The notes: generated from the sequence alone by a model not told the origin. Positions 20,746 through 64,000 are shown, counted from the first letter of the stretch. The stretch is 64,000 bases of DNA from Vairimorpha necatrix (GCA_036630325.1 CP142730.1:1178001-1242000), one strand, 5' to 3'. Numbers and translations: made by a program.

Positions 20746-21420
20746 CAGCCCCGCATTTGAGGGTGTACGATTTATTTTTTCGAATCGATAAAATGAAATG
20801 CAACAAAAGGAGGAGTAAGCAGGAGACAAAAATTAATGAGCACTAATGGTAATAAAAATAATAAATAAAAATATATTTATTTATAAAAATTAATTTGAAT
20901 TAAGTTATTATGACTTTTTAAAATGTGATGTATTTTTTACAGTACCGATTTTTTTTTATTTTGTTAATTATGAAAGGAAATTTTCTACATAAATCTTATT
21001 TTTATGATAACAAACACAAAAAAAAAAATATGATATAGATATTGAAAAATTAAATACATATTGTTAAATTAAGACAATTTTTTTTCATCAAAAATTGTAT
21101 AAAAAAAATGTATAACTAATTTAAAATATATAGTTTAATAAGACATTATTCTTTAACATTTGATTTTATACATAAATTTTTAATTATTTGGTATTTTTAT
21201 TATTAAAAGATGCAAATAATTTGAGTGCTAATGATTGCTTCTCCTATTTAAGCACTTTATTTTCGGGGCTAAAAAAATTAATGAACACCCTCTGAAGGGG
21301 CGTTTTTGACCCAAATTCTAAAAGTCGAAAAGCTAAATTGCTTATAATTAATATGATTAAAAACTATATTTAAAATATAATTTTGTCATAAATATATATA
21401 TTAATTTTTTATTTTTATTT
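20746..21420. mobile_element. MITE-like element, copy 2 (right TIR missing)
   Basis: Left TIR CAGCCCCGCATTTGAGGGTGTACGATTT. Internal AAGATGCAAATAATTTGAGTGCTAATG block. Ends where the non-LTR remnant starts. Confidence 0.7.
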
Positions 21421-23000: not shown

Positions 23001-24274
23001 ATGAGCGATACCTTGAAAGCTAGTCTATGAATATCTATTCTTGATGATAAATCAACTCAATAATCTTCAAATTAATTTGAAATTATTTAGTCATTTAAAT
23101 TTTTCTTCATATAATTAAAAGACTACATGTCTTATTTTGTATTCTAACTTAAAACGTTACAAATTTATTTCAATGCGATTTATAAAATATTAGTAGATAT
23201 AAATAACTGATAATTTCAGAGATAGCGACAACAGTAATTTATAACTAAAGACGGGGACTCATTTTTACAAAACGTAAAAAATAATATGTACCTCATAAAT
23301 ATTTACTTTGCAGACTTTGTATATTTTCAAATATATAAAGTTTTTTTTCATCAATACTTTAAATTTTTTTTTAAACTTTATACTTTTATCGTATTTTTTT
23401 CTAATTTGACAAAACCACCGAGTAATTTTATTCTAACCACGAAAAGCAGCGTAATAAACTATATTACAGATTAAATTTTATAAACAAATAACATATTTGT
23501 ATTTAAATTACATTGGCCTCTTGCGCTCCTTTGTATACCAGCCTTTAAAACACGCCACCATTTTACTGTTAGATTATCAATGTTTTCTGTAATCGACAGA
23601 TACACTTATAAAAGTTAAATTTTTGGGTGTAAAATAATTTTAATACAACATATGATTTATTTAGATATGGTATAACTTTTTTAAGAAATGTCCAAGTATG
23701 TGGACTTTTTTTTCTTCGCAATAAAGTTTTTAAAATTTACGAGCATTAGATTATAAATGAAATTTTAGATATACTTTATTGCTAATCAGTTCAAATTTTA
23801 TGATAAGTAAAAAATTTGATCAAGCTTTTTAGAATTTTCTAAGGAAAAATATTTCAACTAAACCTCAAGAAATAAAATCTTTTGAAGTATTTGTATTTGC
23901 TAATGGGTATGCTTTTTACAGCTTAATAAATTGCAAATCTATCTGTCATCTTGTGAATTGCGTAAATTTTTTTTTTAATTAATACTCTCTCGCTTGATAT
24001 TCAAAAAGTAATGATACATTAAAAAAATATCTTGCCCTTGAGAATATTTTATCATTATCAGACTCTATTTTTGTATTGTTAAGCTATTTAGAAATACTTA
24101 AGTACCAATAATATTAGTTCTCTAAGCAATCTAATACATAATGTAGCAAAACATATAAGTAATTGTCTTTTTAGTAAAATTTATGGTAATTTCATCAAAT
24201 GATATGATTATTTTATGATTTGTTGCATAACCATCATTTCAATAAGTTTAACTCAATCTGCTAAAATTATATTA

Positions 24275-24323
24275 TGTGTTTATTTTCCATAATGAGGGGT
24301 AAAAATAATAAGGATATATAACA
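24275..24323 (-). repeat. 3' LTR of A1 (49 bp)
   Basis: TGTTATATATCCTTATTATTTTTACCCCTCATTATGGAAAATAAACACA on the minus strand. Identical in all four family-A LTRs. Confidence 0.97.
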
Positions 24324-24350
24324 TCCCCCCTCCAAGACGGTAGTCTCATA

Positions 24351-27300
24351 CTAGAACTCATTAATCCCAAGCAGACCTTTTAAATCATAATGCCGCTTTT
24401 TCACGATCCTACCATTTTCCAAACTAACTAAGTACGAGTCACCTCCGCAAACTTCCTTGATAACACCATATCCTAAAAACCTTCCTTTCTCATACTTATT
24501 ACAACCCGATAAGTTCTCTTTCTTCGCTACCCTAACTCTCTGACCTTTATAGAATTTCTCTCTTTTGCGAGCCACAAACCTCCTACTATAAAATCCTTCA
24601 GGTCCATTCTCGATCATAACCTGGCCCGTTTCGTCTCTTGAGGCCTCAAACGGTGTACATCTCAACCCTTCATGATAGCTGTTATTATAACGCCATATAC
24701 ATCTATTAACCTTGGCTTCAAAATCCACAGCATCATCTTTCAATATTCCTTCTCTTATGGTTCCTATTACCCTTTCCACTCTTCCATTACTTCTATGACT
24801 TTCTACGCTTACTTTCCTATGTAATACATTTTCCTCTGAACACCAATTCCTCATATATTCATTACTAAATTCTTTACCGTTGTCAGTAATTATTTCTACC
24901 GGTTTCATTCCTGATCCACACAACTGTTTTAAAAATCCTACAACCGAGCTTCCGCGTTTGTCCTCTATTACTTTTCCCCAAACGATCCTAGTATAATAAT
25001 CAATCACGACCAACACATATTTCCCTAAATCTCTAAACTCAATCAAATCCAAAGCAACCTTTTCCAAATAAAATCTTGAACTAACAAAATCACAACCACC
25101 ACTCTTTTTCCTATTATGTATTTGGCAAACTTCACACTTCTTTAAAACATCCTCGATATCCTTCTTCATAACCGGCCAATAAAATTCAAACTTCATTGCA
25201 TAGTACACTGGTCCTAAACTTCTATGTCCCAAATTTTCATGAGCATTGACAATTAAACCTTCACGCAATTCTTTCTTTGGAATCTCCGCTTCTCTACCAG
25301 AGTCAAATACCCAAAATTCCTTTCCATCAACAACTTTAACATGCTTGTCCCATTTACCCTGTGCCTGTTTAATACTTCTCTCCTTATTCATTAGCGTTTT
25401 CTCATTTTCATGTACCCTACTCAGTGCATCTGCTACAACCATGGTACTAGGCTCTCTATATTCAATGCTAAAGTCGAACTCTTGAATCTTTTCAATCCAC
25501 CTGTTAATTCTATTATTGTTAAATGCTGGTTTATTTCTAATCTCGATCAATGCCTTATGATCAGTTTCTACCCTAAATCTTCTTCCGCGTAGTTCATATT
25601 CAAACTTTTTAATTCCCCAAAAGACTGCATACATCATCTTCTCACTGATTCCATATCTCGTTTCCGTAGGCGTAAACTTTTTTGATGCCCACTGTACTGG
25701 TACCCAATTACCTTGATCATCTTCCTGCATTAAAACAGCACCCATTCCAACATTACTCGCATCCGTGCGTAACAAAAATTCCTTATTATAATTAACAATT
25801 GCTAAACCTTTTAAATCCCTAATCACTTCCCTTAAACTAATATATTCTTTTTCCATTTCTTCTGTCCATTTCCAATTACTTCCTCGTCCTTTAAGAGAAT
25901 CCGTCAACGCCAATGTACGTTTTGCATAATTATCAATATGATTTCTAAACCATCCAGCCAGCCCAAGAAACTTCCTAACATCTGATACACACTCCGGTTT
26001 GGGAAATTCTAACGCTTCATTTTGCTTTATTTCAGATGGCAGTATCTCCTTGCCATTAACTGTTACTCCTAACAACATCACCTCTCGTTTACATAATTGA
26101 ACCTTAGCCAAATTAATTTTCATACTATTCTCCTCTAATATATCCACAGCCTCTTTCAACAATTTGTCGTGACCCTCTCTTGTCTTACTATGAATCACAA
26201 TATCGTCCATATAAATTTCGATTCCCTTACCAATAAATTTTTCAAAAATCCCATTCATTATTCTTTGTAATATCTGCGGTGAGTTTTTAAACCCCATGAC
26301 CATCGAATTCCACTCGTATACCTTTTTATTAAACTCAAAAGCCGTCTTAAACCTATCCTTCTCTTCAATCTCAATACTATAAAACCCCTCCTTTAGATCT
26401 ATCACGGTAAAAAATTCAGATCCCTGTGTACTTCTAATAACATCTCTTATCCTAGTTAACTCATAAGGATCCTTCTCTACAATGTCATTAAGAGCAATTA
26501 AATTACTTACTAATCTTATATCACCATTCGGTTTCTCAATCGCTCTAATGGGATTTCTCCAGTCAGATATCGACCTTCTAATTATCTTTCTTCTTTCCAA
26601 ACTATTAATATAATCTTCCGTCTTCTTCAACAAAGCCTGAGCTATAGCCTGCCCTTTTTTAACAACTTTCTTGCCTTCTTGAGTCTTGATAATACATTTT
26701 TCAACCTTACAAAAACTAATATCTTCATCCTCTCTTCCTCCTACCCGTGAAATAATCTCCTCTAAATACGCGATGCCTCTTACATCCCTTCTCAACAGAA
26801 CTCTCTTATTATTGTCCCTTTTGCTATAATCTTGTATATTCCCTAAATTTTTCTTCTTACGTTTTCCACCATCAACATTATAATAATCACATTTGTCCGA
26901 ATTGGAATCGTCATCACATTTACCTTCTAAGTCTAATTGCACTTTACATTTACCAACATAATTAAAACTACTTTTATTTCTTCTGTCTTCAGAATCTCGC
27001 CTCATTCCCCTACAAAATCTAACACTATGGCCTAACTTCCCACAATTGTAGCAACGCATATTCTTTTTATTTTCCTCACGAGACAACTTATTCTTCTCCT
27101 CAAATTTAGCCCATAACGCTAGGGACAACTCTTCAAATTCTTTTTTTCTCACTTGTTCCTTTTCCTCCTGAATAGCTAGCAACTCTAATTTTTCCTCAAT
27201 TTCCTTCCAACTACCCTCTTGCGAGATCCTCTCAACAATAAAATTTCTCAATAAAATAGAACCTCTCCTAAAAATTTCTAACTTAAATCCACACTCATCA

Positions 27301-27425
27301 ATTTTCTCTAAAAACAACTCATAAACAATCCTTTTAACCTCTTTTAATAATATTCTAGCCTCTTGGCCACGGTCCTCCTTTGTAGACCCATTTTCTGGTA
27401 TCGCCCCCATGTGTTTATTTTCCAT
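24351..27425 (-). CDS. Single Gag(CCHC)-RT-RNase H-integrase polyprotein, 1024 aa, no protease motif
   Basis: CYNCGKLGHSVRFC, IDLKEGF, YMDD, TDAS..TDH..ADALSR, H-H-C-C, ALDL..TDNG..RVER. Start set at the ATG inside the LTR, because the upstream part of the track ORF runs into flanking DNA. Confidence 0.95.
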   Translation of the reverse strand: MENKHMGAIPENGSTKEDRGQEARILLKEVKRIVYELFLEKIDECGFKLEIFRRGSILLRNFIVERISQEGSWKEIEEKLELLAIQEEKEQVRKKEFEELSLALWAKFEEKNKLSREENKKNMRCYNCGKLGHSVRFCRGMRRDSEDRRNKSSFNYVGKCKVQLDLEGKCDDDSNSDKCDYYNVDGGKRKKKNLGNIQDYSKRDNNKRVLLRRDVRGIAYLEEIISRVGGREDEDISFCKVEKCIIKTQEGKKVVKKGQAIAQALLKKTEDYINSLERRKIIRRSISDWRNPIRAIEKPNGDIRLVSNLIALNDIVEKDPYELTRIRDVIRSTQGSEFFTVIDLKEGFYSIEIEEKDRFKTAFEFNKKVYEWNSMVMGFKNSPQILQRIMNGIFEKFIGKGIEIYMDDIVIHSKTREGHDKLLKEAVDILEENSMKINLAKVQLCKREVMLLGVTVNGKEILPSEIKQNEALEFPKPECVSDVRKFLGLAGWFRNHIDNYAKRTLALTDSLKGRGSNWKWTEEMEKEYISLREVIRDLKGLAIVNYNKEFLLRTDASNVGMGAVLMQEDDQGNWVPVQWASKKFTPTETRYGISEKMMYAVFWGIKKFEYELRGRRFRVETDHKALIEIRNKPAFNNNRINRWIEKIQEFDFSIEYREPSTMVVADALSRVHENEKTLMNKERSIKQAQGKWDKHVKVVDGKEFWVFDSGREAEIPKKELREGLIVNAHENLGHRSLGPVYYAMKFEFYWPVMKKDIEDVLKKCEVCQIHNRKKSGGCDFVSSRFYLEKVALDLIEFRDLGKYVLVVIDYYTRIVWGKVIEDKRGSSVVGFLKQLCGSGMKPVEIITDNGKEFSNEYMRNWCSEENVLHRKVSVESHRSNGRVERVIGTIREGILKDDAVDFEAKVNRCIWRYNNSYHEGLRCTPFEASRDETGQVMIENGPEGFYSRRFVARKREKFYKGQRVRVAKKENLSGCNKYEKGRFLGYGVIKEVCGGDSYLVSLENGRIVKKRHYDLKGLLGINEF

Positions 27426-27458
27426 AATGAGGGGTAAAAATAATAAGGATATATAACA
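27410..27458 (-). promoter_or_regulatory. 5' LTR of A1 carrying TATA-like tract, CCCC motif, ATG and AATAAA
   Basis: TATATA..ACCCCTCATT-ATG-GAAAATAAACACA. Same CCC-ATG layout as host genes in this window. Confidence 0.8.
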
Positions 27459-29124
27459 TATTATCTGAATCACAGAAAAATGATTTTAAATTAGCATATG
27501 TAATTGAACTTTTGTTTCACTTTAATATTTTATTTACGCCCTTTTAGTTCATCACATTGTATTTTTATTTTCTTAGTAATTTAATCTATACATTCATCAA
27601 TATATAAAATAAATTCATTTTTCGACTAAATAATTTTGCCCGTCTCCAATATTCGACTTCTTCTAAATCATTTGGTCTTATTTCCTAAAGTTTTTCAGTG
27701 TGTGCTTTTGAGATAAAAAAGTTTGTAGATCGCCAGGTCTACCTTTGCATATTAGAGGTTCCGCTTAGCATTTTTAGTGTATTCTATTATAGAATACAAT
27801 GAAAAAAAATTCACATTTCCTTTGTTCACTAGCATTATTTATATAATTTTATAAAAAAATCCTTTATACTTCGTTTTTCAACATTCGTCGCATGCGTACT
27901 TTGTGGAATCATTAATGATATCTTCACCTTGTGAAAAAAATCACGTCTTCTGAAAATGCTCTACTATATTATATATTAATCGATTATCCAAAAGATGCAC
28001 CTTGAACAATGCCTTCTTCATTTTTAAAATTACTTAAGTTAATTTTGTTTAACATTGAACCTAAACTTCGCAGTTTCATAATTTAAATTAAAGCTGATTT
28101 TATAAAACCTTTTTGATTTTGTCATAAAACATTTATTTTTATGTCGAAATAATAATGCAAAAGTTCCAAAAAACGTTTCACAATCAATCTCCGAGGTGTC
28201 GAAAATGTCAAATATAAATTTTTAGTAATTTATAAGAGAAAAATAACAGTGTTGTTATTACAAAAGCTAACGTAATTATGTCAAATTTTCATTGCGTCAA
28301 TGTTAAATTTTTTTAAAAACAAATGATTTTATGTTATTAAAAATAAAAATTAAATTTAAAAAAAATTCATAAGTTTACATTAGTTTATTCATCATGATTA
28401 TTAAACTTATTTAATATCTGTCGTAAATATTGTATAATTTTTAATGAAATTTTTTAAATGAAACTAAAAACAAACATGTGTAATTAGGCTTTTAAAATAT
28501 ACTTAAATAAAATTCAATAGTTTTGAAAAAATCTGAAGGATGGGTTAATTTTGATGATTTTTAATTTATGTTTGACAGTTACAGTATGAAATTTAAATAT
28601 TGTTACTATCTAAACCATTTCGACAATATAAAAAATCAAACACAAAAATCATCGTACATATTAAGCATGATTCGAATTTAATAATAAAGATTTTATATAT
28701 TCTTACAAATTTTAAAATTCGCTAATTTATATGTACTTTTATAATAAAAATTGAATTCAAGAATATTCCAATAAATTTTTTTCAGCTAAGATTTGTTAAA
28801 GTAGATCTAATTTACCATCTTTTAACAATTATCCCCACATATATTTTCTAAATTATTTGATGGCTATAATATCAAATGTATTTTCCAATTATACTGGTTT
28901 TTTATATTAATTTCTGAAATGTTAAATAAATAAAATTAAATTTCTACAGACTAAACACTATAGCTGTTGACTTATATTATTACGTTGTATTAAATATTTA
29001 ATATGATATATTAAGATATGTTAAATCAAAAATCACTTTTATTTTACTTTAAAAACTCTGTAACAATATTTTTAACTTGTAATATACGAAAAAACGAAAA
29101 CAAAAGCGACTAAGTATAAAATTT

Positions 29125-30872: not shown

Positions 30873-33800
30873 TGTCGTATCCTTCTATAAATATTATATA
30901 TTTTCACCCCCATGCAATTCGTAATTAAAGGAACATTCGACATGGCGACAGCGATAAAAACTGTTGGCTGCTTCAGTGGAAAGAAGGAAGAGGATATAAC
31001 TACATGGTTGCGTGACACAACGTTTACGGCGAGGGTTATGGGACTGACAGAAAATCAGACCGCCAGACTTATCTGCCTGGGTCTACGTGGGCCAGCTCTC
31101 TCATGGATAGCAATGGCATTTGAACGGGTGTCCAAACTTGATCTGGCAGAGGTTACTAAGAGTCTAAAATTGAGATTTTACAGTTCACTGAAAACTCTGG
31201 CCACTCTAGACGAGTAATTAAACCACAACAATTTGGCAACCTAGAGGCTTTCATAGACTTCTGCAGGAAAGGAAACCCCCTTATAGAGGAACAAACAATG
31301 GAGTACAAAGCAGTCAGCCTCATAGTAATCAAGAAGTCTCCTTCAGTCCTCAAATCAATTCTTTATGATTTTGCTAGACAATGCCAAGATTGGAGTGAAT
31401 TCCTGAGGCGCACAGAGGAAGTTTCTTGGATAGCATTCCCTATGAAAAGTAACACGACTAATACGGACGAGACACTAGATAACAGGACTTTGAAGGTCGC
31501 ACTATCGAAGAAGGGAAATATACCCTACACCATAGAAAACTACAAGATCAACAGCTGTTTTACTATTTTTGCTACATAAACGTAGAATTCAATCGTAAAC
31601 GACATCGAGCATTAATTGATACCGGAGCTGATGTCTCCCTGATACCCGCAAGAGTCCTCGAAGGGACAAATATCAGATTTACCAGATCTTCAACGATCAT
31701 ACGAGCAGTATCAGGGACACCATTGGAGATTACAGGAAGATGTCTAAATATCAATTTTAGGACGGAAAACACTTCAATTACTTTCAGCCCTTACGTCACA
31801 GAACGGACACCGAACTACATAATCTTAGGAGTTGACGCTATACGACCGAACCCCATATTACTGGAACAACTGATCAGAAAATTCGCCAATACAGTCAAGA
31901 AAGGCTCACTGATTAACAAAGTCAATTACATCTAATCGAAGAGAAATACCATGACATGTTCAAAACTGAAATTTCAGAGCTTACACTTTGTAACATGGGG
32001 AAACATCAAATCGAGACAAAGGAGCGAAGGCAATTTACCAGAAAAATGGAAAGATCCCTCTGCACTTTGAAGAGGAAATCACTCAACAGATCAAGAAGAA
32101 CTTGCAGTTGGGCGTAATAAGAAATAGTAGGAGCCCCTGGAACAGTAGAGTTGTTCCGGTAACGAAACCTGATGGGTCGATCAGGCTCTGTATAGATTAC
32201 AGAGAGCTCAACATGATAACAGTCAAAGATAAATACCCCCTCCTACGAATTGATGAAATTCTCAACGATCTAGCTGACGCTACTATCTTTTCGACATTAG
32301 ATGCTACGTCGGGATATTATCAAATATCCCAGAAAGAAGTAGACAAGGAGAAAACAGCATTCAGCTGGAGAGATGGACATTATGAATTTAACAGAATGTC
32401 GTTTGGGCTATGTAATGCCCCTGCTACTTTTCAGAGAACTATGGATAAGATTTTTGTGAAAGAAAACAGAAAATTCGTCATACCATACTTGGATGACATT
32501 ATTATCTATTCTAAAAATCACCAGGAACACCGTGAACACTTGGAAATCGTATTGGGTAAACTTAAGGCAGCAGGAATCGCACTTAACAGGAAAAAGGCTA
32601 CTTCTTTAAGGGAGAAATTTAAATTCTAGGGAATATAGTAACAAAAAAGACGATCAACCCGGACCCAGAGAAGGTCAAAGCCATAAACGAGTATAAGGAG
32701 CCGAAAAATATTGCTCAACTACGGTCGTTTCTTGGCCTCATAAATTACTGTAGGGAGTTCATCCGTAACTTATCAGCAATAGCAGCCCCTCTCTACGAAC
32801 TGTTTAAAGGAGAGTCAAAGCGAAGTGTTAAGAGTATTTCTCTCAGCAAAAAGGAGAAACGGGCATTCGAAGATCTAAAGAGACTTCTCACAGAAGAGAC
32901 AAAAAGATACAAGATTAATCTCAGGAAACCGTTTATACTGATTACGGATGCGTCAGAGCAGGGAATAGGCGCGATCCTCTCACAGATTGGAAATGATGGG
33001 AAGGAGACAATGTAAGTGCATTCAGCAAAAGTTTAGAGAAAGCCCATAAGAACTACTCTACAACAGACAAAGAACTCTTGGCCGTTGTAAAAGGCATCGA
33101 GAACTATAGACACTACCTCCTGGGTAGAGAGTTCATATTGTAGACGTACTCAAAGCGCTGACTTATCTGGGGGAAGCTAAGAACCCTACCAGTAGATTGC
33201 TTAGGTGGGCAATGAAGTTGCAGAAGTATGCATTTCAATCAACCTACATAAAAGGAGAGGTTAATGGAGCAGACGGGTTAAGCAGACAAAACCCGACAGA
33301 GAAAGATAATAATATCATCGAAGCTACAGGACCAAGCGATGAAGACAGACAGAAGATCTTAGAATCCTACCATCTAGACGTTGGACATGCTAGCGCTAGT
33401 ACGATGAGCTTCATGATTTCACAGAGGTACAAATGGGCAGGAATGCATAAGGACATCAAGGAACACGTAGAAAAGTGTAAAACGTGCTTGAAATCGGGAT
33501 ACCCATTACGAAACACAATAAACAAGGTTATACGATCAGAAAGGCCGAACCAAATATGGGTGATAGATCTCATAGGACGCATATGCGACACTTCGGGTCA
33601 AAACAGCTTCATATTCATTGCTATTGACCACTACTCTAAATGGGTCGAGACGGCTGTTATTAACTATAAAACAGGGTCGAAAATAATGGGATTAATCCAG
33701 CAATTGATTATCGAGAAACACGGCATTCCAGAAAGAATCTTGACTGACAACGGGCTAGAATTTATAAATTCTGACATCAAAGACCTGGCCGAAAAGAACG

Positions 33801-34411
33801 GTATTGACTGGCAATACAGTTCACCAGAACATCACGAAACTGAAGGCGCAGTAGAAAGAGCGAATCAGACGTTAATGAAGATACTAAATAAAATTACAGA
33901 TTTCGGAAGGGTAAGCTGGAAGAACAAGCTTCCAGAAGCCACGAGATGCCTCAACCTGTCTTATAATCGGAGCATAGGAACATCGCCGTTTATGTTAAGG
34001 GAAAATAAATTGCTAATGCTGTCTGTAGACAAAGCGCTAGACAAGGAAGAAGTGACATTCTCAGCGGAGGAAACGAAGAGTAAGCGCGATGAAAACTTTG
34101 AAAAGTACAAAAAAGCAAACGTGCAAGGGAAAGTAGAGGTGGCGAAAAAGCTAAACGTGGGCGATAAAGTTTTAATATATCGTGAGACCAAAAGCGGGAA
34201 GTTCAAGTGCAATTGGGAAGATGAATACGTGATCACAGAAATAATTTTACCCGATGCCTATGTGGTAAAAAAGAATGGAAAAGTATACAGGCTTAACAAA
34301 ACACGAGTTAAAGCATATACTTCAATTTATGGGAGGAAGAGGTGTCGTATCCTTCTATAAATATTATATATTTTCACCCCATGCAATTCGTAAATAAAGG
34401 AACATTCGACA
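30873..34411 (+). mobile_element. Ty3/Gypsy LTR retrotransposon family B, defective (3539 bp)
   Basis: LTRs 30873-30942 (70 bp) and 34343-34411 (69 bp) with two differences. Perfect TSD ATTAT. PBS TGGCGACAGCG and PPT GGGAGGAAGAGG. Confidence 0.96.
30912..34360 (+). pseudogene. Gag-PR-RT-RNase H-IN polyprotein with multiple frameshifts and stops
   Basis: Capsid-like FSGKKEEDITTWL..LRGPALSW, protease LIDTGAD (~31612-31632), RLCIDYRELN, YLDD, TDAS, H..H..CKTC, TDNG..VERAN. Confidence 0.93.
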
Positions 34412-34731
34412 ATTATTACCAAGCGAAATCAATCCCATGGATGATGTTTCAAAAATGTTTATTATTATTGTATTAGTTAATTTGCAATATAAAAATCTCA
34501 TTCTAAAAAAGTAGCAAAAATATAATCATTGTAATTCTTCTGTGTTTTTCAATTTTTACTTTGATTTTGGCTTATGTAATTATGATTTATATTAAAAATG
34601 CGTCATTATAAAAATCATTTCTCTCATATGCGATTTTGGATGAAGAGAAAACAAAGTAATATTATTTTTTATTCTAGTTTCCGTTTATTCGAGACCTTAT
34701 CATAGCAAACAAAAAATATGAAAAAAACGTC

Positions 34732-34810
34732 GGCTAAAATTAGCACTTTATATAAAAAATAACAGGGGTAAAATTTTTAAAAAATTGCCCCTTTTTCAAA
34801 AAAAAAGAGA
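34732..34810. repeat. Orphan diverged Merlin-3-type terminal repeat
   Basis: GGCTAAAATTAGCA..AAAATTTTTAAAAAATTGCCCCTTTTT matches the TIR starting at 40569. Confidence 0.7.
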
Positions 34811-40149: not shown

Positions 40150-40568
40150 CCCACCTCCAGCATGTTTACTATAAATTAATAATTTCTTCTTTTGTTTTTT
40201 GATTTTTTTTTTAATTATTCCTTCTTCCAATTATTGATCAAAACTTATCTTTATTCTGTGCAATGTATAATAAAGATAAGTCTTGATCAATCTCTTTATA
40301 AATAAAATTAATAAGGTTTTCACATCATAATAAGCGACTTTCCTTAATAAATAAACACGTATATAAATATATGATGCTTTACTTGGAAGAAAAATTTTGC
40401 ATGTCATGTAAATTGATCTATTATGTGATTCAAAAATGTACAAAAGATATCAATATTGCAACATTATTTGACAATAAATCCATCGAAATACTGAAAAGAA
40501 TCAAACTAAGATACACATGCTTAAAAAAAATTAAATTAACCTAGAATTTGCATATGATAGCAAAAATG

Positions 40569-45463: not shown

Positions 45464-48400
45464 TGTGTTTATTTTCCATAATGAGGGGTAAAAATAATAA
45501 GGATATATAACATCCCCCCTCCAAGACGGTAGTCTCATACTAGAACTCATTAATCCCAAGCAGACCTTTTAAATCATAATGCCGCTTTTTCACGATCCTA
45601 CCATTTTCCAAACTAACTAAGTACGAGTCACCTCCGCAAACTTCCTTGATAACACCATATCCTAAAAACCTTCCTTTCTCATACTTACTACAACCCGATA
45701 AGTTCTCTTTCTTCGCTACCCTAACTCTCTGACCTTTATAGAATTTCTCTCTTTTGCGAGCCACAAACCTCCTACTATAAAATCCTTCAGGTCCATTCTC
45801 GATCATAACATGGCCCGTTTTGTCTCTTGAGGCCTCAAACGGTGTACATCTCAACCCTTCATGATAGCTGTTATTATAACGCCATATACATCTATTAACC
45901 TTGGCTTCAAAATCCACAGCATCATCTTTCAATATTCCTTCTCTTATGGTTCCTATTACCCTTTCCACTCTTCCATTACTTCTATGACTTTCTACGCTTA
46001 CTTTCCTATGTAATACATTTTCCTCTGAACACCAATTCCTCATATATTCATTACTAAATTCTTTACCGTTGTCAGTAATTATTTCTACCGGTTTCATTCC
46101 TGATCCACACAACTGTTTTAAAAATCCTACAACCGAGCTTCCGCGTTTGTCCTCTATTACTTTTCCCCAAACGATCCTAGTATAATAATCAATCACGACC
46201 AACACATATTTCCCTAAATCTCTAAACTCAATCAAATCCAAAGCAACCTTTTCAAAATAAAATCTTGAACTAACAAAATCACAACCACCACTCTTTTTCC
46301 TATTATATATTTGGCAAACTTCACACTTCTTTAAAACATCCTCGATATCCTTCTTCATACCCGGCCAATAAAATTCAAACTTCATTGCATAGTACACTGA
46401 TCCTAAACTTCTATGTCCCAAATTTTCATGAGCATTGACAATTAAACCTTCACGCAATTCTTTCTTTGGAATCTCCGCTTCTCTACCAGAGTCAAATACC
46501 CAAATTTCCTTCCCATCAACAACTTTAACATGCTTGTCCCACTTACCCTGTGCCTGTTTAATACTTCTCTCCTTATTCATTAGCGTTTTCTCATTTTCAT
46601 GTACCCTACTCAGTGCATCTGCTACAACCATGGTACTAGGCTCTCTATATTCAATGCTAAAGTCGAACTCTTGAATCTTTTCAATCCACCTGTTAATTCT
46701 ATTATTGTTAAATGCTGGTTTATTTCTAATCTCGATCAATGCCTTATGATCAGTTTCTACCCTAAATCTTCTTCCGCGTAGTTCATATTCAAACTTTTTA
46801 ATTCCCCAAAAGACTGCATACATCTCCTTCTCACTGATTCCATATCTCGTTTCCGTAGGCGTAAACTTTTTTGATGCCCACTGTACTGGTACCCAATTAC
46901 CTTGATCATCTTCCTGCATTAAAACAGCACCCATTCCAACATTACTCGCATCCGTGCGTAACAAAAATTCCTTATTATAATTAACAATTGCTAAACCTTT
47001 TAAATCCCTAATCACTTCCCTTAAACTAATATATTCTTTTTCCATTTCTTCTGTCCATTTCCAATTACTTCCTCGTCCTTTAAGAGAATCCGTCAACGCC
47101 AATGTACGTTTTGCATAATTATCAATATGATTTCTAAACCATCCAGCCAGCCCAAGAAACTTCCTAACATCTGATACACACTCCGGTTTGGGAAATTCTA
47201 ACGCTTCATTTTGCTTTATTTCAGATGGCAGTATCTCCTTGCCATTAACTGTTACTCCTAACAACATCACCTCTCGTTTACATAATTGAACCTTAGCCAA
47301 ATTAATTTTCATACTATTCTCCTCTAATATATCCACAGCCTCTTTCAACAATTTGTCGTGACCCTCTCTTGTCTTACTATGAATCACAATATCGTCCATA
47401 TAAATTTCGATTCCCTTACCAATAAATTTTTCAAAAATCCCATTCATTATTCTTTGTAATATCTGCGGTGAGTTTTTAAACCCCATGACCATCGAATTCC
47501 ACTCGTATACCTTTTTATTAAACTCAAAAGCCGTCTTAAACCTATCCTTCTCTTCAATCTCAATACTATAAAACCCCTCCTTTAGATCTATCACGGTAAA
47601 AAATTCAGATCCCTGTGTACTTCTAATAACATCTCTTATCCTAGTTAACTCATAAGGATCCTTCTCTACAATGTCATTAAGAGCAATTAAATTACTTACT
47701 AATCTTATATCACCATTCGGTTTCTCAATCGCTCTAATGGGATTTCTCCAGTCAGATGTCGACCTTCTAATTATCTTTCTTCTTTCCAAACTATTAATAT
47801 AATCTTCCGTCTTCTTCAACAAAGCCTGAGCTATAGCCTGCCCTTTTTTAACAACTTTCTTGCCTTCTTGAGTCTTGATAATACATTTTTCAACCTTACA
47901 AAAACTAATATCTTCATCCTCTCTTCCTCCTACCCGTGAAATAATCTCCTCTAAATACGCGATGCCTCTTACATCCCTTCTCAACAGAACTCTCTTATTA
48001 TTGTCCCTTTTGCTATAATCTTGTATATCCCCTAAATTTTTCTTCTTACGTTTCCCACCATCAACATTATAATAATCACATTTGTCCGAATTGGAATCGT
48101 CATCACATTTACCCTCTAAGTCTAATTGCACTTTACATTTACCAACATAATTAAAACTACTTTTATTTCTTCTGTCTTCAGAATCTCGCCTCATTCCACT
48201 AAAAAATCTAACACTATGGCCTAACTTCCCACAATTGTAGCAACGCATATTCTTTTTATTTTCCTCACGAGACAACTTATTCTTCTCCTCAAATTTTGCC
48301 CATAACGCTAGGGACAACTCTTCAAATTCTTTTTTTCTCACTTGTTCCTTTTCCTCCTGAATAGCTAGCAACTCTAATTTTTCCTCAATTTCCTTCCAAC

Positions 48401-48647
48401 TACCCTCTTGCGAGATCCTCTCAACAATAAAATTTCTCAATAAAATAGAACCTCTCCTAAAAATTTCTAATTTAAATCCACACTCATCAATTTTCTCTAA
48501 AAACAACTCATAAACAATCCTTTTAACCTCTTTTAATAATATTCTAGCCTCTTGGCCACGATCCTCCTTTGTAGACCCATTTTCTGGTATCGCCCCCATG
48601 TGTTTATTTTCCATAATGAGGGGTAAAAATAATAAGGATATATAACA
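45464..48647 (-). mobile_element. Ty3/Gypsy family A, copy 2 (3184 bp)
   Basis: Identical 49-bp LTRs (45464-45512, 48599-48647). Perfect TSD TAAAC. Same PBS and PPT as copy 1. Confidence 0.97.
45540..48614 (-). CDS. Single Gag-RT-RNase H-IN polyprotein, 1024 aa, no protease motif
   Basis: Near-identical to 24351-27425. Last Cys of the CCHC knuckle is replaced by Phe. Confidence 0.95.
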   Translation of the reverse strand: MENKHMGAIPENGSTKEDRGQEARILLKEVKRIVYELFLEKIDECGFKLEIFRRGSILLRNFIVERISQEGSWKEIEEKLELLAIQEEKEQVRKKEFEELSLALWAKFEEKNKLSREENKKNMRCYNCGKLGHSVRFFSGMRRDSEDRRNKSSFNYVGKCKVQLDLEGKCDDDSNSDKCDYYNVDGGKRKKKNLGDIQDYSKRDNNKRVLLRRDVRGIAYLEEIISRVGGREDEDISFCKVEKCIIKTQEGKKVVKKGQAIAQALLKKTEDYINSLERRKIIRRSTSDWRNPIRAIEKPNGDIRLVSNLIALNDIVEKDPYELTRIRDVIRSTQGSEFFTVIDLKEGFYSIEIEEKDRFKTAFEFNKKVYEWNSMVMGFKNSPQILQRIMNGIFEKFIGKGIEIYMDDIVIHSKTREGHDKLLKEAVDILEENSMKINLAKVQLCKREVMLLGVTVNGKEILPSEIKQNEALEFPKPECVSDVRKFLGLAGWFRNHIDNYAKRTLALTDSLKGRGSNWKWTEEMEKEYISLREVIRDLKGLAIVNYNKEFLLRTDASNVGMGAVLMQEDDQGNWVPVQWASKKFTPTETRYGISEKEMYAVFWGIKKFEYELRGRRFRVETDHKALIEIRNKPAFNNNRINRWIEKIQEFDFSIEYREPSTMVVADALSRVHENEKTLMNKERSIKQAQGKWDKHVKVVDGKEIWVFDSGREAEIPKKELREGLIVNAHENLGHRSLGSVYYAMKFEFYWPGMKKDIEDVLKKCEVCQIYNRKKSGGCDFVSSRFYFEKVALDLIEFRDLGKYVLVVIDYYTRIVWGKVIEDKRGSSVVGFLKQLCGSGMKPVEIITDNGKEFSNEYMRNWCSEENVLHRKVSVESHRSNGRVERVIGTIREGILKDDAVDFEAKVNRCIWRYNNSYHEGLRCTPFEASRDKTGHVMIENGPEGFYSRRFVARKREKFYKGQRVRVAKKENLSGCSKYEKGRFLGYGVIKEVCGGDSYLVSLENGRIVKKRHYDLKGLLGINEF

Positions 48648-62199: not shown

Positions 62200-64000
62200 T
62201 GTAGGGTTTAGAACCCTTAATAAATAAATGGTTAACATGGCGAACACAAGGATGAACAGGGAAACAAGAGAGTCCCGTAGTCAAGAGGCTAGAACATTAG
62301 AGAAAGAGGCAATTAGGATAGATAAGAGACTAAAGTTAATATTGAAAGTTGAGAAAGTTGAGTGGAAAGATGTTATGGATTTGGCATCTGCGAACTTGCA
62401 GGATTATATTTTTGAAAATTTTTGTGACGGAAGGAGCAGTTGGGAGGAAATTTATAAAGGCTTACAAAAAGGAGCAGAATTTGAGAGAGAGTCAGAAGAA
62501 AGACAAGAAATGATTAAAGAGATTATGGATAAAGTGTTGAAAGAGTTTAGGGAAGAAAGAAAAGAAAATCTTAGGATGTATAGGAAAAGAAGAGAAATCA
62601 GAGAAACTACAAAATGTTTTATATGTAAGAAAGAAGGGCATTACGCTAGAGAATGTCATGAAAGTGTAGCTGGTAGGGAAAAATATAAAATTAAAAAGGA
62701 ACAAGTTTTACAGAAAGAACCAATTATCAACAATGAAGGGAAAAGATGTAAAACAGTAAATAAGTTAGAAAATTTAATTGAAAAGTATCCGGAAGTTTTT
62801 AAAGAATCAGAAGAAAAGATAAAATATCTCACAGGAGAGAAGTGTCCAATAAATACTAAGCAAGGTGAAAAGGTTGTGAAAAGAGGGCAGAATGTGCCAT
62901 ACTACCTTAGGGTGAAATTTGAGGAGTACTTGAATAAGTTGGAAAATAGAGGGGTTATAAGACGTTCCAAAAGTGAGTGGAGGAGTCCAATAAGAGCACT
63001 TGAAAACCCAAATGGGGACGTAAGATTGGTAAGCAATTTGATGGCGTTAAACGATTTGGTTGACAAGGACCCGTACTCACTACCGTTAATTAAGGATATT
63101 ATGAGAGCCACACAGGGGTCAAAAGTATTTACGGTTATCGACTTAAAAGAAGGGTTTTATCATATTGAGATTGAGGAGCACCATAAGCACAAAACAGCAT
63201 TTGAAGTGAATGGTCGAGTATACGAATGGAATAGTATGGTTATGGGGTTTAAGAATTCGCCTCATATAATGCAGAGAGTAATGAACAGAGTTTTAGATGA
63301 ATTCAGAGGTAAAGGCGTGGAAGTATATATGGATGATATAGTTATTCATGGTAAAGACGTAAGAGTGCATGACGAGTTACTAGAGAGGGTAATTAAAAAG
63401 TTTAAAGAGTGTGGGTTGAGAATAAACCAAACAAAGATACAATACAAAAAAGATGAGGTGATGTTGCTGGGAGTAACAATTAATGGGGAGGTCATGGGAC
63501 CGAATGAGATTAAAAAGCAGGAGACATTGGAATATAGAAAACCTGAGAATGTTAGAGAGTTAAGAAGATTTTTAGGACTAACTGGTTGGTTTAGAGACTT
63601 TATTCCCAACTATGCGTATAGAACAGTAAGGCTTACTGAGGCTTTAAAGAAAGATGTTAAGTGGAATTGGACGGAGGATATGGAAAGAGCTTTTGAGGAT
63701 ATGAAGCAAGGCTTGAGAGATATGAAAAAGTTGAAGATTCCGGACGGAAAAAAGCTATTTAGAGTAAGAACTGATGCGTGTGATACGGGGATCGGAGCAA
63801 TTCTATTACAAGAAAATAAAGAGGGTGAGTGGATTCCGATACAATGGGCATCGAAAATGTTGACTCCTACCGAGCGAAGATATACGATAAGTGAGAAGGA
63901 GATGTTGGTGGTGTTTTTTGGAATAAAGAAGTTTGAAAGTGATTTGAGAGGAAGGAAATTTCATTTGATGACGGATCATAAAGCATTAGCAGAGATCAGA
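62200..64000 (+). mobile_element. Ty3/Gypsy family C (related to A), runs off the window end
   Basis: Candidate 5' LTR TGTAGGGTTTAGAACCCTTAATAAATAAATGGTTAACA (62200-62237), then PBS-like TGGCGAAC. The 3' LTR is not in the window, so the left boundary is unverified (alternative TGT at 62161). Confidence 0.9.
62228..64000 (+). CDS. Gag(CCHC)-RT-RNase H polyprotein, partial (591 codons open to window end), no protease
   Basis: Manual translation: MVNMANTR..QEARTLEKE..CFICKKEGHYAREC..LIEKYPEVF..RLVSNLMALN..IDLKEGF..YMDD..TDAC..SEKE..TDHKAL. No stop codon. Missing from the ORF track. Confidence 0.93.
   Translation, partial: MVNMANTRMNRETRESRSQEARTLEKEAIRIDKRLKLILKVEKVEWKDVMDLASANLQDYIFENFCDGRSSWEEIYKGLQKGAEFERESEERQEMIKEIMDKVLKEFREERKENLRMYRKRREIRETTKCFICKKEGHYARECHESVAGREKYKIKKEQVLQKEPIINNEGKRCKTVNKLENLIEKYPEVFKESEEKIKYLTGEKCPINTKQGEKVVKRGQNVPYYLRVKFEEYLNKLENRGVIRRSKSEWRSPIRALENPNGDVRLVSNLMALNDLVDKDPYSLPLIKDIMRATQGSKVFTVIDLKEGFYHIEIEEHHKHKTAFEVNGRVYEWNSMVMGFKNSPHIMQRVMNRVLDEFRGKGVEVYMDDIVIHGKDVRVHDELLERVIKKFKECGLRINQTKIQYKKDEVMLLGVTINGEVMGPNEIKKQETLEYRKPENVRELRRFLGLTGWFRDFIPNYAYRTVRLTEALKKDVKWNWTEDMERAFEDMKQGLRDMKKLKIPDGKKLFRVRTDACDTGIGAILLQENKEGEWIPIQWASKMLTPTERRYTISEKEMLVVFFGIKKFESDLRGRKFHLMTDHKALAEIR

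What the first reader, a model, noticed from the sequence alone, without database searches (positions are those of the whole stretch)
24275..27458. Recently mobile, protease-less mini Ty3/Gypsy lineage (3.18 kb, single ORF, ~125-aa Gag)
Seen: families A (two copies) and C go from the CCHC knuckle to the RT with no D-[ST]-G motif. The gap is ~80 charged low-complexity residues in A and only 39 in C, too short for a retropepsin. Only ~125-130 aa precede the knuckle, sharing R-[GS]-QEAR-x-L-x-KE and SW-x-EI between A and C. There is no gag/pol stop or frameshift. Yet both A copies have open 1024-aa ORFs, identical LTRs and different perfect TSDs, so they are independent recent insertions. Established: Ty3/Gypsy elements normally need their own protease and a two-domain capsid of roughly 200 aa. 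Inference: protease loss is a stable lineage trait (two diverged families), so these elements work as an uncleaved polyprotein or borrow a protease in trans. I cannot confirm that this is undescribed.
Basis: partly seen in the sequence, partly recalled or inferred. Interest (0 to 1): 0.85.

Follow-up and report, generated by a model that had tools for sequence, protein, structure and literature searches.

The report
Protease-less mini LTR retrotransposon of microsporidia
Two near-identical 3.2-kb copies of a tiny retrovirus-like jumping gene in a microsporidian parasite genome belong to a large, old lineage that has no protease and no recognisable capsid, parts that such elements are normally thought to need.

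Summary
Window 24275-27458 (minus strand) is a complete 3184-bp LTR retroelement. It has 49-bp TG..CA LTRs, a 5-bp target-site duplication, a polypurine tract and one 1024-aa ORF. A second copy lies at 45464-48647 and a diverged relative (family C) starts at 62200.

The ORF reads: about 125-aa helical Gag-like domain, one CCHC knuckle, a disordered linker, RT, RNase H, integrase. No retropepsin was found by Pfam, a purpose-built protease HMM, profile-profile comparison, AlphaFold2 models of both families, or Foldseek.

The trait belongs to the lineage. All 45 related rows form one clade (SH-aLRT 100) and none shows a protease. Named members come from Nosema, Vairimorpha and Enteropsectra. The nearest protease-bearing relatives are at most 35% identical, so these are not deletion derivatives.

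Caveats:
- Identical 49-bp LTRs say little about age.
- Each window copy carries a substitution at a residue invariant in the clade (RNase H E597M; knuckle C138F).
- A protease-bearing lineage (family B, 30873-34411) shares the genome, so borrowing a protease in trans stays open.

Extra finding: the LTRs are only 38-49 bp in this lineage (69-70 bp in family B) and contain the start codon.

I found no description of the protease loss in the searchable literature. Verdict: new variant of a known kind, interest 0.68.

The parts
24275..27458 (-). Family A copy 1: complete 3184-bp LTR retroelement
   Evidence: The terminal 49-bp repeats, the duplication and the ORF are shown.
27410..27458 (-). 5' LTR, 49 bp. 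In element orientation it runs TG..CA and holds TATATA at position 4, CCCC at 25, an in-frame ATG at 34 and AATAAA at 40.
   Evidence: The promoter and poly(A) roles of these motifs are inferred, not shown.
24275..24323 (-). 3' LTR, identical to the 5' LTR
27459..27463 (.). Target-site duplication TATTA, beside the 5' LTR
24270..24274 (.). Target-site duplication TATTA, beside the 3' LTR
27395..27409 (-). Primer-binding-site-like stretch TGGGGGCGATACCAG directly after the 5' LTR. It lies inside the ORF. The last A of the LTR plus the TG of this stretch form the second ATG.
   Evidence: The primer tRNA was not identified; there is no tRNA gene in the window.
24324..24333 (-). Polypurine tract GGAGGGGGGA directly upstream of the 3' LTR
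   Evidence: The block GAGACTACC..GTCT..GGAGG.GGGG is shared with locus L001.
24351..27425 (-). Single ORF of 1024 aa plus stop, 96.6% of the element. It starts inside the 5' LTR.
27054..27425 (-). Gag-like N-terminal domain, aa 1-124: three short helices (19-39, 44-54, 57-66) and one long helix (73-122)
   Evidence: AlphaFold2 gives pLDDT above 90 over about residues 20-140. Family C has the same layout. No Pfam gag family matched and Foldseek found no capsid match.
27012..27053 (-). Single CCHC zinc knuckle, aa 125-138
   Evidence: These are the only invariant columns of the 35-row N-terminal alignment. Pfam zf-CCHC scores E 0.0011-0.0045, below the curated cut-off. The stretch matches retroviral nucleocapsid chains at E 4e-5.
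26772..27011 (-). Linker, aa 139-218, in the slot where a protease would sit. It is charged and predicted disordered. It contains the NKSSFNY motif and a KRKKK patch.
   Evidence: pLDDT is mostly below 50. Mean identity to the rest of the clade is 13%. The protease HMM and hhalign were negative.
25869..26771 (-). Conserved pre-RT segment and reverse transcriptase, aa 219-519, with YMDD at 405
   Evidence: Pfam RVT_1 covers 296-456 at E 2.3e-31.
25476..25868 (-). RNase H, aa 520-650. This copy carries E597M at a glutamate otherwise kept across the clade.
   Evidence: Pfam RT_RNaseH at E 9.9e-32. The substitution is shown.
24354..25277 (-). Integrase, aa 717-1024: HHCC zinc domain, DDE core and a C-terminal domain
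   Evidence: Pfam Integrase_H2C2 covers 717-772 and rve covers 792-870. Invariant H/H/C/C and D/D/E columns are listed.
45464..48647 (-). Family A copy 2: 3184 bp, LTRs at 45464-45512 and 48599-48647, duplication TAAAC at 45459-45463 and 48648-48652. It carries knuckle C138F.
62200..64000 (+). Family C, 5' part, running off the window. The candidate 38-bp 5' LTR is 62200-62237. The ORF starts at 62228 inside the LTR. The domain layout is the same and no protease is present.
   Evidence: A 38-bp 3' LTR of the same design is seen in relative L001 at 2724-2761.
30873..34411 (+). Family B: a decayed 3539-bp Ty3/gypsy element of a different lineage that does carry a canonical protease (ALIDTGA...ILGVD, within 31483-31932). 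Its LTRs are 70 and 69 bp and its duplication is ATTAT. It is listed as context and as a possible helper.
   Evidence: It is 97% identical to an intact 1141-aa Vairimorpha necatrix polyprotein.

Best explanation
What it is (well supported). Families A and C belong to a deep, monophyletic lineage of Ty3/gypsy-type LTR retrotransposons, apparently restricted to microsporidia. The host here is Vairimorpha necatrix or a very close relative.

The lineage has been stripped to about 3.0-3.2 kb. Its LTRs are 38-49 bp and hold a TATA-like box (family A only), a CCC motif in three of the four LTRs read, an in-frame start codon and an AATAAA. The primer-binding site is part of the coding sequence. One ORF encodes a small helical Gag-like domain, one nucleocapsid-type CCHC knuckle, a variable disordered linker, RT, RNase H and a DDE integrase. 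There is no retropepsin and no recognisable capsid fold. The lack of a protease is ancestral to the whole clade and is not a recent deletion.

How it most likely works (inferred).
- The element makes its own RT, RNase H and integrase, and copies itself by the ordinary LTR route. That route is tRNA-primed minus-strand synthesis from the TGG site, plus-strand priming from the polypurine tract, and integration with 5-bp duplications.
- It does not depend on self-processing. My preferred reading is that the roughly 120-kDa protein acts largely intact as a ribonucleoprotein on its own mRNA.
- In that reading the knuckle serves as RNA chaperone and packaging module, the long helix may drive self-association, and the disordered linker is a flexible tether.
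- Trimming by a protease supplied in trans would then be optional, not essential. The source could be the co-resident family-B lineage or the host.

Split of confidence. The element encodes no protease and this is a lineage trait: about 0.9. It works without obligatory cleavage: about 0.4-0.45.
For: Structure of the element.
- LTRs, duplications, the polypurine tract and the TGG site are read directly.
- The Pfam domain order is RVT_1, RNase H, Integrase_H2C2, rve.

No protease.
- Pfam.
- The custom HMM hit 0 of 45 clade rows, against 54 of 78 outgroup rows and 20 of 22 B-lineage rows.
- hhalign gave 0.1-0.2%, against 99.5% for the control.
- AlphaFold2 models.
- Foldseek found 0 hits at E <= 0.001 in three searches.
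- The PDB sequence search matched only the knuckle.

Too little room for a protease.
- From the last knuckle Cys to the conserved EKCxIxT, the gap has minimum 55, median 73 and maximum 193 aa in 37 rows. About 30 aa of that is the conserved pre-RT segment.

Lineage trait.
- The 45 rows form one clade at SH-aLRT 100 in a 123-row tree. In a 76-row tree the 26 sampled rows again form one clade at 100, separate from the B lineage.
- Named members come from Nosema granulosis, Vairimorpha necatrix and Enteropsectra breve.

Long-term function.
- YMDD, the RNase H D/E/D residues and the integrase HHCC and DDE residues are invariant or nearly so in 22 full-length members that are only 41-60% identical.
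- RT, RNase H and integrase keep 49-65% identity, while the linker keeps 13%.

Mobility.
- There are two copies with different perfect duplications and open ORFs.
- Relatives sit on contigs of about 3.0-3.2 kb.

Shared design.
- 26 of 34 N-terminally complete proteins begin with, or contain near the start, M-[A/G]. That is the LTR-end A plus the TGG of the primer site.
- Short LTRs of the same plan are seen in A, C, L001 and L002.
Against: Against activity of these particular copies.
- A1 carries E597M and G752V. A2 carries C138F. All three sit at positions invariant or nearly invariant in the clade.
- pN/pS between the copies is 0.47 and not significantly below 1 (p = 0.10).

Against 'no cleavage needed'.
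- Right after the knuckle, 21 of 37 rows keep an NK-x(3-6)-Y/F motif in an otherwise unconserved linker. Three of those 37 rows are near-identical family-A copies. From memory, Asn-Tyr followed by a hydrophobic residue resembles some retropepsin cleavage sites.
- All three named host species of the clade also carry protease-bearing B-lineage elements. The window itself holds a B copy, though a decayed one.
- From established knowledge, protease-defective Ty1, Ty3 and retroviruses do not complete replication.

Limits of the negative evidence.
- In 9 of 46 clade rows the knuckle or RT landmark was missing, for example through N-terminal truncation, so the slot could not be measured.
- The Pfam scan of the alignment lists only 25 of 44 matched families. 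Peptidase_A17 appears in 3 of 35 members at a best E of 0.047, which is not significant.
- My protease HMM missed 24 of 78 outgroup rows. Many of these predicted proteins start within or after the protease, which I did not check row by row.
- hhalign of the mini Gag against the B-lineage Gag gave probability 15% (P 0.002). A remote capsid ancestry is therefore neither shown nor excluded.
- Self-association of the N-terminal domain could not be tested.
Confidence: 0.6

Rival explanations
1. The lineage is a long-lived parasite of protease-bearing elements. It encodes its own RT and integrase, but its polyprotein is cut in trans by the retropepsin of co-resident family-B-type Ty3/gypsy elements, for example at the conserved NK..NY site after the knuckle. 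Replication would then require a helper.
For: - A B-lineage element with a canonical protease lies 3.4 kb away in the same window (30873-34411).
- An intact 1141-aa B-type polyprotein that is 97% identical exists in V. necatrix.
- V. necatrix, N. granulosis and E. breve each have members of both lineages.
- The NK-x(3-6)-Y/F motif is kept in 21 of 37 rows within a linker that is otherwise 13% identical.
Against: - The two lineages are separate clades on long branches, each with SH-aLRT 100.
- Their Gag parts are not detectably related (hhalign probability 15%).
- No comparable conserved motif stood out at the RNase H-integrase boundary when I read the consensus. This was an inspection, not a test.
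- The mini clade is at least as diverse as the B lineage: 43 clusters against 22 in the two searches.
- Co-occurrence may only reflect TE-rich genomes, and only three named species could be checked.
Confidence: 0.27
2. A host protease processes the polyprotein within the exposed disordered linker. The candidate could be a Ddi1-type retropepsin-like protein or another cytosolic protease. The element would have outsourced the protease to the cell.
For: - The linker is predicted disordered and is highly variable in length, with a 55-193 aa gap between the landmarks. That fits an accessible cleavage region.
- The conserved NK..NY motif and the basic KR(K) patch could be recognition sites.
Against: - No host protease was examined; the window contains none that Pfam recognised.
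- I know of no precedent among LTR retrotransposons (recalled, not searched exhaustively).
- The basic patch could equally be a nuclear localisation signal.
Confidence: 0.1
3. The copies are simple internal-deletion derivatives of a longer, protease-bearing master element, or the linker hides a cryptic protease. These were the reader's two refutation conditions.
For: Family A's slot of about 80 aa is close to the size of a small retropepsin. One relative, P0012, has VVDTGN in its linker.
Against: - The P0012 motif lies only about 10 aa before the conserved pre-RT segment and scores nothing with the protease HMM.
- Of 37 rows, 33 have 103 aa or fewer between the knuckle and EKCxIxT, of which about 30 aa is the pre-RT segment.
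- All fold, HMM and profile tests were negative, with working positive controls.
- No protease-bearing relative is more than 35% identical among the 120 best listed of 259 hits.
Confidence: 0.03

Closest known systems
Microsporidia-specific Ty3/gypsy groups (Parisot et al. 2014, PMC4202319; Nbr elements of Nosema bombycis, Xu et al. 2006)
   Same: These are also LTR retrotransposons of microsporidia with one polyprotein in place of separate gag and pol, and they form clades of their own. Passages of PMC4202319 were read. The same point is repeated in 2026 in PMC13174016 (passages).
   Different: - The word 'protease' occurs 0 times in the main text of PMC4202319.
- A passage of PMC2474625 says that nearly all N. 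bombycis elements encode Gag, protease, RT, RNase H and integrase. The clade here has no protease.
- I could not see their figures, their supplements or the 2006 paper. I therefore cannot say which of their three groups this clade is, or whether the lack of a protease is visible in their data.
- LTR lengths of 38-49 bp and a start codon inside the LTR are not mentioned in the passages I saw.
Family-B lineage of microsporidian Ty3/gypsy elements (window 30873-34411; V. necatrix P0160 and relatives)
   Same: It shares the host genomes. It is also very compact: 3.5 kb here, with relatives on contigs of about 3.7-3.9 kb. It has tiny LTRs (69-70 bp), an ATG at the LTR/primer-site junction and a single polyprotein.
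   Different: It has a canonical retropepsin (DTGA...ILGVD; 20 of 22 rows hit the protease HMM). Its Gag region is longer, 177-346 aa. Its RT clade is separate.
Ty3 of Saccharomyces and Tf1 of Schizosaccharomyces (reference Ty3/gypsy elements; Tf1 has a single ORF)
   Same: The Pol order is RT, RNase H, integrase. The Pfam families are of Ty3/gypsy type. There is a nucleocapsid CCHC knuckle, TG..CA LTRs and 5-bp duplications. The Ty3 Gag-Pol chain matches only at the knuckle (E 1.5).
   Different: From established knowledge, Ty3 and Tf1 need their own protease and a two-domain capsid, and their LTRs are hundreds of bp long. Here no protease or capsid fold is detectable and the LTRs are 38-49 bp.
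Retroelements that naturally lack a protease (DIRS/Ngaro, non-LTR elements, hepadnaviruses)
   Same: They replicate by reverse transcription without an element-encoded aspartic protease (established knowledge). The layout of helix plus CCHC knuckle plus RT recalls some non-LTR ORF1/ORF2 designs; this is a resemblance from memory, not a test.
   Different: Those elements translate their structural and polymerase proteins separately, or use a tyrosine recombinase or an endonuclease. The element here has a DDE integrase (rve), true LTRs and everything fused in one ORF.

Membership tests
Ty3/gypsy (Metaviridae-type) LTR retrotransposon | Direct terminal repeats ending TG..CA, flanked by a 4-6 bp target-site duplication | tested here: met
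   The 49-bp LTRs are identical within and between both copies. The duplications are TATTA and TAAAC. The LTR length is far below the usual range.
Ty3/gypsy (Metaviridae-type) LTR retrotransposon | Primer-binding site next to the 5' LTR and polypurine tract next to the 3' LTR | tested here: met
   TGGGGGCGATACCAG follows the 5' LTR and GGAGGGGGGA precedes the 3' LTR. The primer tRNA is not identified; there is no tRNA gene in the window.
Ty3/gypsy (Metaviridae-type) LTR retrotransposon | Pol domain order RT, RNase H, integrase, with Ty3/gypsy-type domains | tested here: met
   RVT_1 covers 296-456, RT_RNaseH 546-650, Integrase_H2C2 717-772 and rve 792-870.
Ty3/gypsy (Metaviridae-type) LTR retrotransposon | Retropepsin (D-T/S-G aspartic protease) between Gag and RT | tested here: not met
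   Negative by Pfam, custom HMM (0 of 45 rows), hhalign (0.1-0.2%), AlphaFold2 and Foldseek.
Ty3/gypsy (Metaviridae-type) LTR retrotransposon | Gag with a two-domain capsid fold (Retrotrans_gag / Ty3_capsid) | tested here: not met
   No gag Pfam family matched at E up to 10. There were 0 Foldseek matches at E <= 0.001. The model shows three short helices and one long helix. Weak leads only: atlas neighbours include small zf-CCHC/Retrotrans_gag clusters at score 0.94, and hhalign against B-lineage Gag gave probability 15%.
Ty3/gypsy (Metaviridae-type) LTR retrotransposon | Nucleocapsid CCHC zinc knuckle at the end of Gag | tested here: met
   C125, C128, H133 and C138 are invariant in 35 rows. 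The stretch matches retroviral nucleocapsid chains at E 4e-5. Pfam zf-CCHC is just below its cut-off.
Microsporidian single-polyprotein Ty3/gypsy groups (Parisot et al. 2014) | One polyprotein ORF in place of gag and pol ORFs | tested here: met
   paper passages.
Microsporidian single-polyprotein Ty3/gypsy groups (Parisot et al. 2014) | Placement in one of the three published microsporidian groups | not testable with these tools
The named relatives here are all microsporidian or are contaminant contigs in bacterial MAGs.
Non-autonomous LTR elements (LARD/TRIM type) | No coding capacity for RT and integrase | tested here: not met
   An open 1024-aa ORF carries RT, RNase H and integrase, and the catalytic residues are conserved across the clade.
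DIRS/Ngaro-type protease-less retroelements | Tyrosine recombinase instead of a DDE integrase, with split or inverted repeats | tested here: not met
   The element has a DDE integrase (rve) and simple direct LTRs with a target-site duplication.

The most novel reading that the evidence does not exclude
This would be the minimal autonomous LTR retroelement. One protein of about 120 kDa (helical domain, NC knuckle, tether, RT, RNase H, integrase) would replicate its own mRNA as a ribonucleoprotein. It would have no capsid shell, no proteolytic maturation and no set Gag:Pol ratio. It would be driven by 38-49-bp LTRs that pack promoter, start codon and poly(A) signal. If so, capsid and protease are dispensable for the LTR/integrase replication route, and an LTR element has converged on the cis-acting, LINE-like way of life.
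Probability: 0.33. Interest if true: 0.88.

Novelty: new variant of a known kind. Interest (0 to 1): 0.68.

Why it matters
Textbook models hold that LTR retrotransposons and retroviruses need a capsid-forming Gag and their own aspartic protease. The protease releases RT and integrase and matures the particle.

Here a diverse, evidently long-lived clade has neither. It covers several microsporidian genera, with members down to about 41% identity, yet it keeps every catalytic residue of RT, RNase H and integrase.

This gives a natural experiment on which parts of the retroviral replication machine are really indispensable. It also shows how far genome compaction in microsporidia has reached their parasites.

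There is a practical side. From memory, standard LTR-finding programs use minimum LTR lengths of about 100 bp. LTRs of 38-49 bp in this lineage and 69-70 bp in family B would then be missed, so these elements are likely mis-annotated or under-annotated in microsporidian genomes. Copies also turn up as contaminants in bacterial MAGs.

Tried and rejected
- **Poly-A slippery tract.** I asked whether a tract in the linker could yield a truncated Gag by ribosome sliding. There is no A-run of 6 or more in the linker of A or C, and KRKKK is encoded by interrupted codons. Rejected.
- **Conserved 3' hairpin before the polypurine tract.** The block GAGACTACC..GTCT is shared by A and L001. Folding gives z-scores of +0.66 and -0.08, no better than shuffles. 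There is no support for a structure.
- **P0012 'VVDTGN' as a relic protease.** It sits about 10 aa before the pre-RT segment and gets no protease-HMM score. Chance motif.
- **NK..NY-like motif upstream of the protease in B-lineage Gag.** None is evident in the alignment.
- **Solo LTRs of family A in the window.** None; only the four LTRs of the two copies are present.
- **tRNA genes that might identify the primer.** None in the window.
- **Complex prediction on two copies of the N-terminal 145 aa,** to test self-association. The job never ran, so there is no result.
- **The listing of cluster members for names of unnamed clade members.** The database was switched off.
- **Pattern search for the 3' block in the loci.** No match, because my pattern fixed the spacing wrongly. 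The alignment shows the block.
- **Literature.** Eight searches found no paper describing protease-less microsporidian or Ty3/gypsy lineages, or LTRs this short. The 2006 Nbr paper, the figures and all supplements could not be read.

Full report
**1. What is at the coordinates**

Window 24275-27458 is a complete LTR retroelement on the minus strand.
- Its ends are two identical 49-bp direct repeats, 24275-24323 and 27410-27458. In element orientation they run TG...CA.
- They are flanked by the 5-bp duplication TATTA.
- A second copy, A2, lies at 45464-48647 and is flanked by TAAAC.
- The 49-mer occurs four times in the window and never in 100 shuffles. There are no solo LTRs.
- In element orientation the 5' LTR is followed at once by TGGGGGCGATACCAG, a tRNA-3'-end-type primer site.
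- The 3' LTR is preceded by the polypurine tract GGAGGGGGGA.
- One ORF of 1024 aa fills 96.6% of the 3184 bp. No other ORF of 100 aa or more exists on either strand.
- Family C starts at 62200 on the plus strand and runs off the window. Its protein is 45% identical to A.

**2. Host**

A 726-aa host ORF in the window (12602-14782) has paralogs 90% and 77% identical in Vairimorpha necatrix. The window's own copy sits on a contig of 1,297,884 bp, the same length as a contig that carries V. necatrix-named proteins. The window is therefore from V. necatrix or something very close.

**3. Domain map and the missing protease**

Pfam places the following on the protein:
- RVT_1 at 296-456
- RNase H at 520-650
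- Integrase_H2C2 at 717-772
- rve at 792-870
- a sub-threshold zf-CCHC at 124-138

The conserved pre-RT segment begins near residue 219. That leaves residues 139-218 as the slot where a retropepsin should be. Nothing there or elsewhere resembles one.
- Pfam reports only zinc-finger families for residues 1-321 at E up to 10.
- I built a protease HMM from 21 Ty3/gypsy relatives plus the window's own family-B protease. It hits 0 of 45 clade rows; three rows have i-E of 6 or more and negative scores. It hits 54 of 78 outgroup rows at i-E <= 1e-3 and 20 of 22 B-lineage rows.
- hhalign of the clade's pre-RT profile against two protease profiles gives probability 0.1-0.2%. The protease-versus-protease control gives 99.5%.
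- AlphaFold2 with a 35-row alignment models residues 20-140 of A at pLDDT above 90. The model has helices 19-39, 44-54 and 57-66, a long helix 73-122, and the knuckle. Most of 145-217 is below pLDDT 50.
- Family C gives the same layout at mean pLDDT 84, with only a short helix in its slot.
- Foldseek finds no match at E <= 0.001 in PDB for either model, or in BFVD for the family-A model. The only recurring hits are retroviral nucleocapsid knuckles.
- A PDB sequence search matches residues 119-144 to nucleocapsid proteins at E 4e-5 and nothing else of note.

**4. The loss is a lineage trait, not a deletion**

The search of 5.8 billion proteins gave 259 hits at E <= 0.001, and the best 120 are listed.
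- The first 43 hits have E <= 7e-103.
- Most of the N-terminally complete ones are about 1000 aa, and many sit on contigs of 3.0-3.2 kb.
- None has a precomputed protease Pfam domain.
- The named ones are from Nosema granulosis, V. necatrix and Enteropsectra breve, or are contaminant contigs in bacterial MAGs.
- Protease families appear only in relatives at 35% identity or less.

The slot is too small. Across 37 rows with both landmarks, the distance from the last knuckle cysteine to the conserved EKCxIxT is 55-193 aa with median 73. About 30 aa of that is the conserved pre-RT segment. Nine of 46 rows lacked a landmark, and three of the 37 are near-identical family-A copies.

The trees agree.
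- In an RT-RNase H tree of 123 rows and 404 columns (IQ-TREE quick search, LG+G4), the 45 protease-less rows form one clade with SH-aLRT 100.
- In a second tree of 76 rows, the mini clade, the B lineage and the remaining relatives are each one side of a branch, with support 100, 100 and 93.
- These are quick searches without bootstraps, and the root is not inferred.

Conservation points to long-term function.
- Within 22 full-length members that are only 41-60% identical to A, the catalytic residues of RT, RNase H and integrase are invariant or nearly so.
- Mean identity to A is 57% in RT, 65% in RNase H and 49% in integrase. It is 22% in the Gag-like domain and 13% in the linker.

**5. Age and state of the two copies**

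A1 and A2 differ at 21 of 3184 positions with no indels. All differences lie in the ORF: 7 synonymous and 14 non-synonymous. pN/pS is 0.47, which is not distinguishable from neutral (binomial p = 0.10).

I polarised the changes against a third copy (P0003, 98% identical) and the rest of the clade.
- A1 privately carries E597M, at a glutamate present in 41 of 41 other rows with a residue there. By recalled analogy to other RNases H this is the catalytic position; I did not test that.
- A1 also carries G752V, where G is present in 35 of 37 rows.
- A2 privately carries C138F, the fourth zinc ligand, where C is present in 40 of 40 rows.

Both are therefore independent and fairly young insertions, but each may be individually crippled. 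Identical 49-bp LTRs carry almost no dating power.

**6. Extreme compaction of the ends (not in the finding)**

Family A's LTR holds TATATA at position 4, CCCC at 25, an ATG at 34 that is in frame with the ORF, and AATAAA at 40. The last A of the LTR plus the TG of the primer site form a second in-frame ATG. The primer-binding site therefore encodes residues 6-10.

The same plan recurs elsewhere.
- It is seen in family C's 38-bp candidate LTR at 62200-62237.
- It is seen in the 38-bp 3' LTR of relative L001, preceded by GGAGGAGGGGA.
- It is seen in a 47-bp candidate in L002.
- It is seen in family B's 70- and 69-bp LTRs.
- 26 of 34 N-terminally complete clade proteins show the M-[A/G] signature. 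In 19 of them a further Met lies 3-8 codons upstream.

That these motifs act as promoter, start site and poly(A) signal is inference. It draws on recalled work on CCC-type motifs and very short leaders in microsporidia. How a repeat of 38-49 bp supplies a working R region is unexplained.

**7. A protease-bearing neighbour**

Window 30873-34411 (plus strand) is a decayed 3539-bp element of another lineage.
- It has stops and frameshifts, a canonical gag-like N-terminus, and the protease ALIDTGA...ILGVD.
- Its integrase piece is 97% identical to an intact 1141-aa V. necatrix polyprotein that carries RVP and gag-asp_proteas domains.
- Relatives occur in N. granulosis, E. breve and Pseudoloma neurophilia.

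All three named hosts of the mini clade thus also hold protease-bearing elements.

**8. Mechanism**

Shown:
- The element has every cis and trans part of the LTR/integrase route except the protease and a recognisable capsid.
- It has inserted at least twice with 5-bp duplications.
- Its lineage has kept its enzymes under constraint for a long time.

Inferred: proteolysis by an element-encoded enzyme is not part of its cycle.

I favour action as a largely intact ribonucleoprotein. The reasons are that the slot is a hypervariable disordered tether, the 1:1 fusion has no means to make excess Gag, and there is no capsid fold to assemble.

Against this stand three points.
- The NK-x(3-6)-Y/F motif is kept after the knuckle in 21 of 37 rows. 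It could be a cleavage site.
- Protease-bearing elements co-reside with the clade.
- Protease-defective Ty elements and retroviruses are known to fail.

I put the uncleaved model at about 0.4-0.45, trans cleavage by B-type proteases at about 0.27 and host cleavage at about 0.1.

**9. Comparison with what is known**

- Parisot et al. 2014 (passages read) describe three microsporidia-specific Ty3/gypsy groups with a single polyprotein. The word 'protease' does not occur in their main text.
- A passage of the Edhazardia EST paper reports that nearly all N. bombycis elements have Gag, protease, RT, RNase H and integrase.
- A 2026 genome paper still cites only the single-polyprotein point.
- Eight full-text searches found nothing on protease-less Ty3/gypsy lineages or on LTRs this short.
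- Figures, supplements and the 2006 Nbr paper could not be read, so prior notice cannot be excluded.

I file this as a new variant of a known kind. It is a Ty3/gypsy-type element by LTRs, Pol order and integrase, but it fails two defining features, the protease and the capsid.

Noticed in passing
window 30873-34411 (+): Family B is a decayed 3539-bp Ty3/gypsy element with several stops and frameshifts. It has 70- and 69-bp LTRs that differ at 2 positions, the duplication ATTAT and a canonical protease. It is 97% identical in integrase to an intact 1141-aa V. necatrix polyprotein.
   Followed up: yes
window 27410-27458, 62200-62237, 30873-30942; L001 2724-2761; L002 1890-1936: All LTRs seen are only 38-70 bp. 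Each contains an in-frame ATG, with a second ATG formed at the junction of LTR and primer site, so the primer-binding site is coding. From memory, common LTR finders use a minimum of about 100 bp and would miss them.
   Followed up: partly
window 25635-25637 (A1 codon 597) and 48200-48202 (A2 codon 138): Each open-ORF copy has a private substitution at a residue invariant in the clade: RNase H E597M in A1 and knuckle C138F in A2. An open reading frame does not prove activity.
   Followed up: yes
window 26952-26972 (A1 residues 152-158) and the equivalent position in relatives: An NK-x(3-6)-Y/F motif is kept after the knuckle in 21 of 37 rows, within a linker that is otherwise 13% identical. 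In A the Asn-Lys codons spell AATAAA. It could be a cleavage site, an RNA-contact motif or an internal poly(A) signal; none of these was tested.
   Followed up: partly
window 24334-24349; L001 2698-2714: The block GAGACTACC(C)GTCT(T) before the polypurine tract is shared by families that are only about 50% identical in protein. Predicted folding is no better than shuffles.
   Followed up: yes
window 12602-14782 (+): This 726-aa ORF has no Pfam family. It belongs to a multi-copy family of uncharacterised V. necatrix proteins, with paralogs at 90, 77, 33 and 26% identity.
   Followed up: partly
window 40734-41105 (-): This 123-aa ORF matches the ISXO2-like DDE transposase domain (PF12762, E 4.6e-13). 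It is probably a fragment of a DNA transposon.
   Followed up: no
window 1468-1854 (+): This 128-aa ORF matches only the C-terminal part of a HECT ubiquitin-ligase domain (E 2e-37). It is either a truncated gene or a gene whose start was missed.
   Followed up: no
window 34725-34806 and 40562-40643; 21145-21245 and 39755-39855: There are two pairs of dispersed direct repeats, 74% and 80% identical and 82 and 101 nt long. Their nature is unknown. The first pair lies just outside family B.
   Followed up: no
loci L001-L003; proteins P0021, P0063, P0163, P0166, P0168, P0170, P0177: Retroelement contigs, mostly of the two microsporidian lineages, are deposited as parts of bacterial MAGs named Clostridium, Turicibacter, Aeromonas and Flavobacterium. 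This is binning contamination in public genomes.
   Followed up: no
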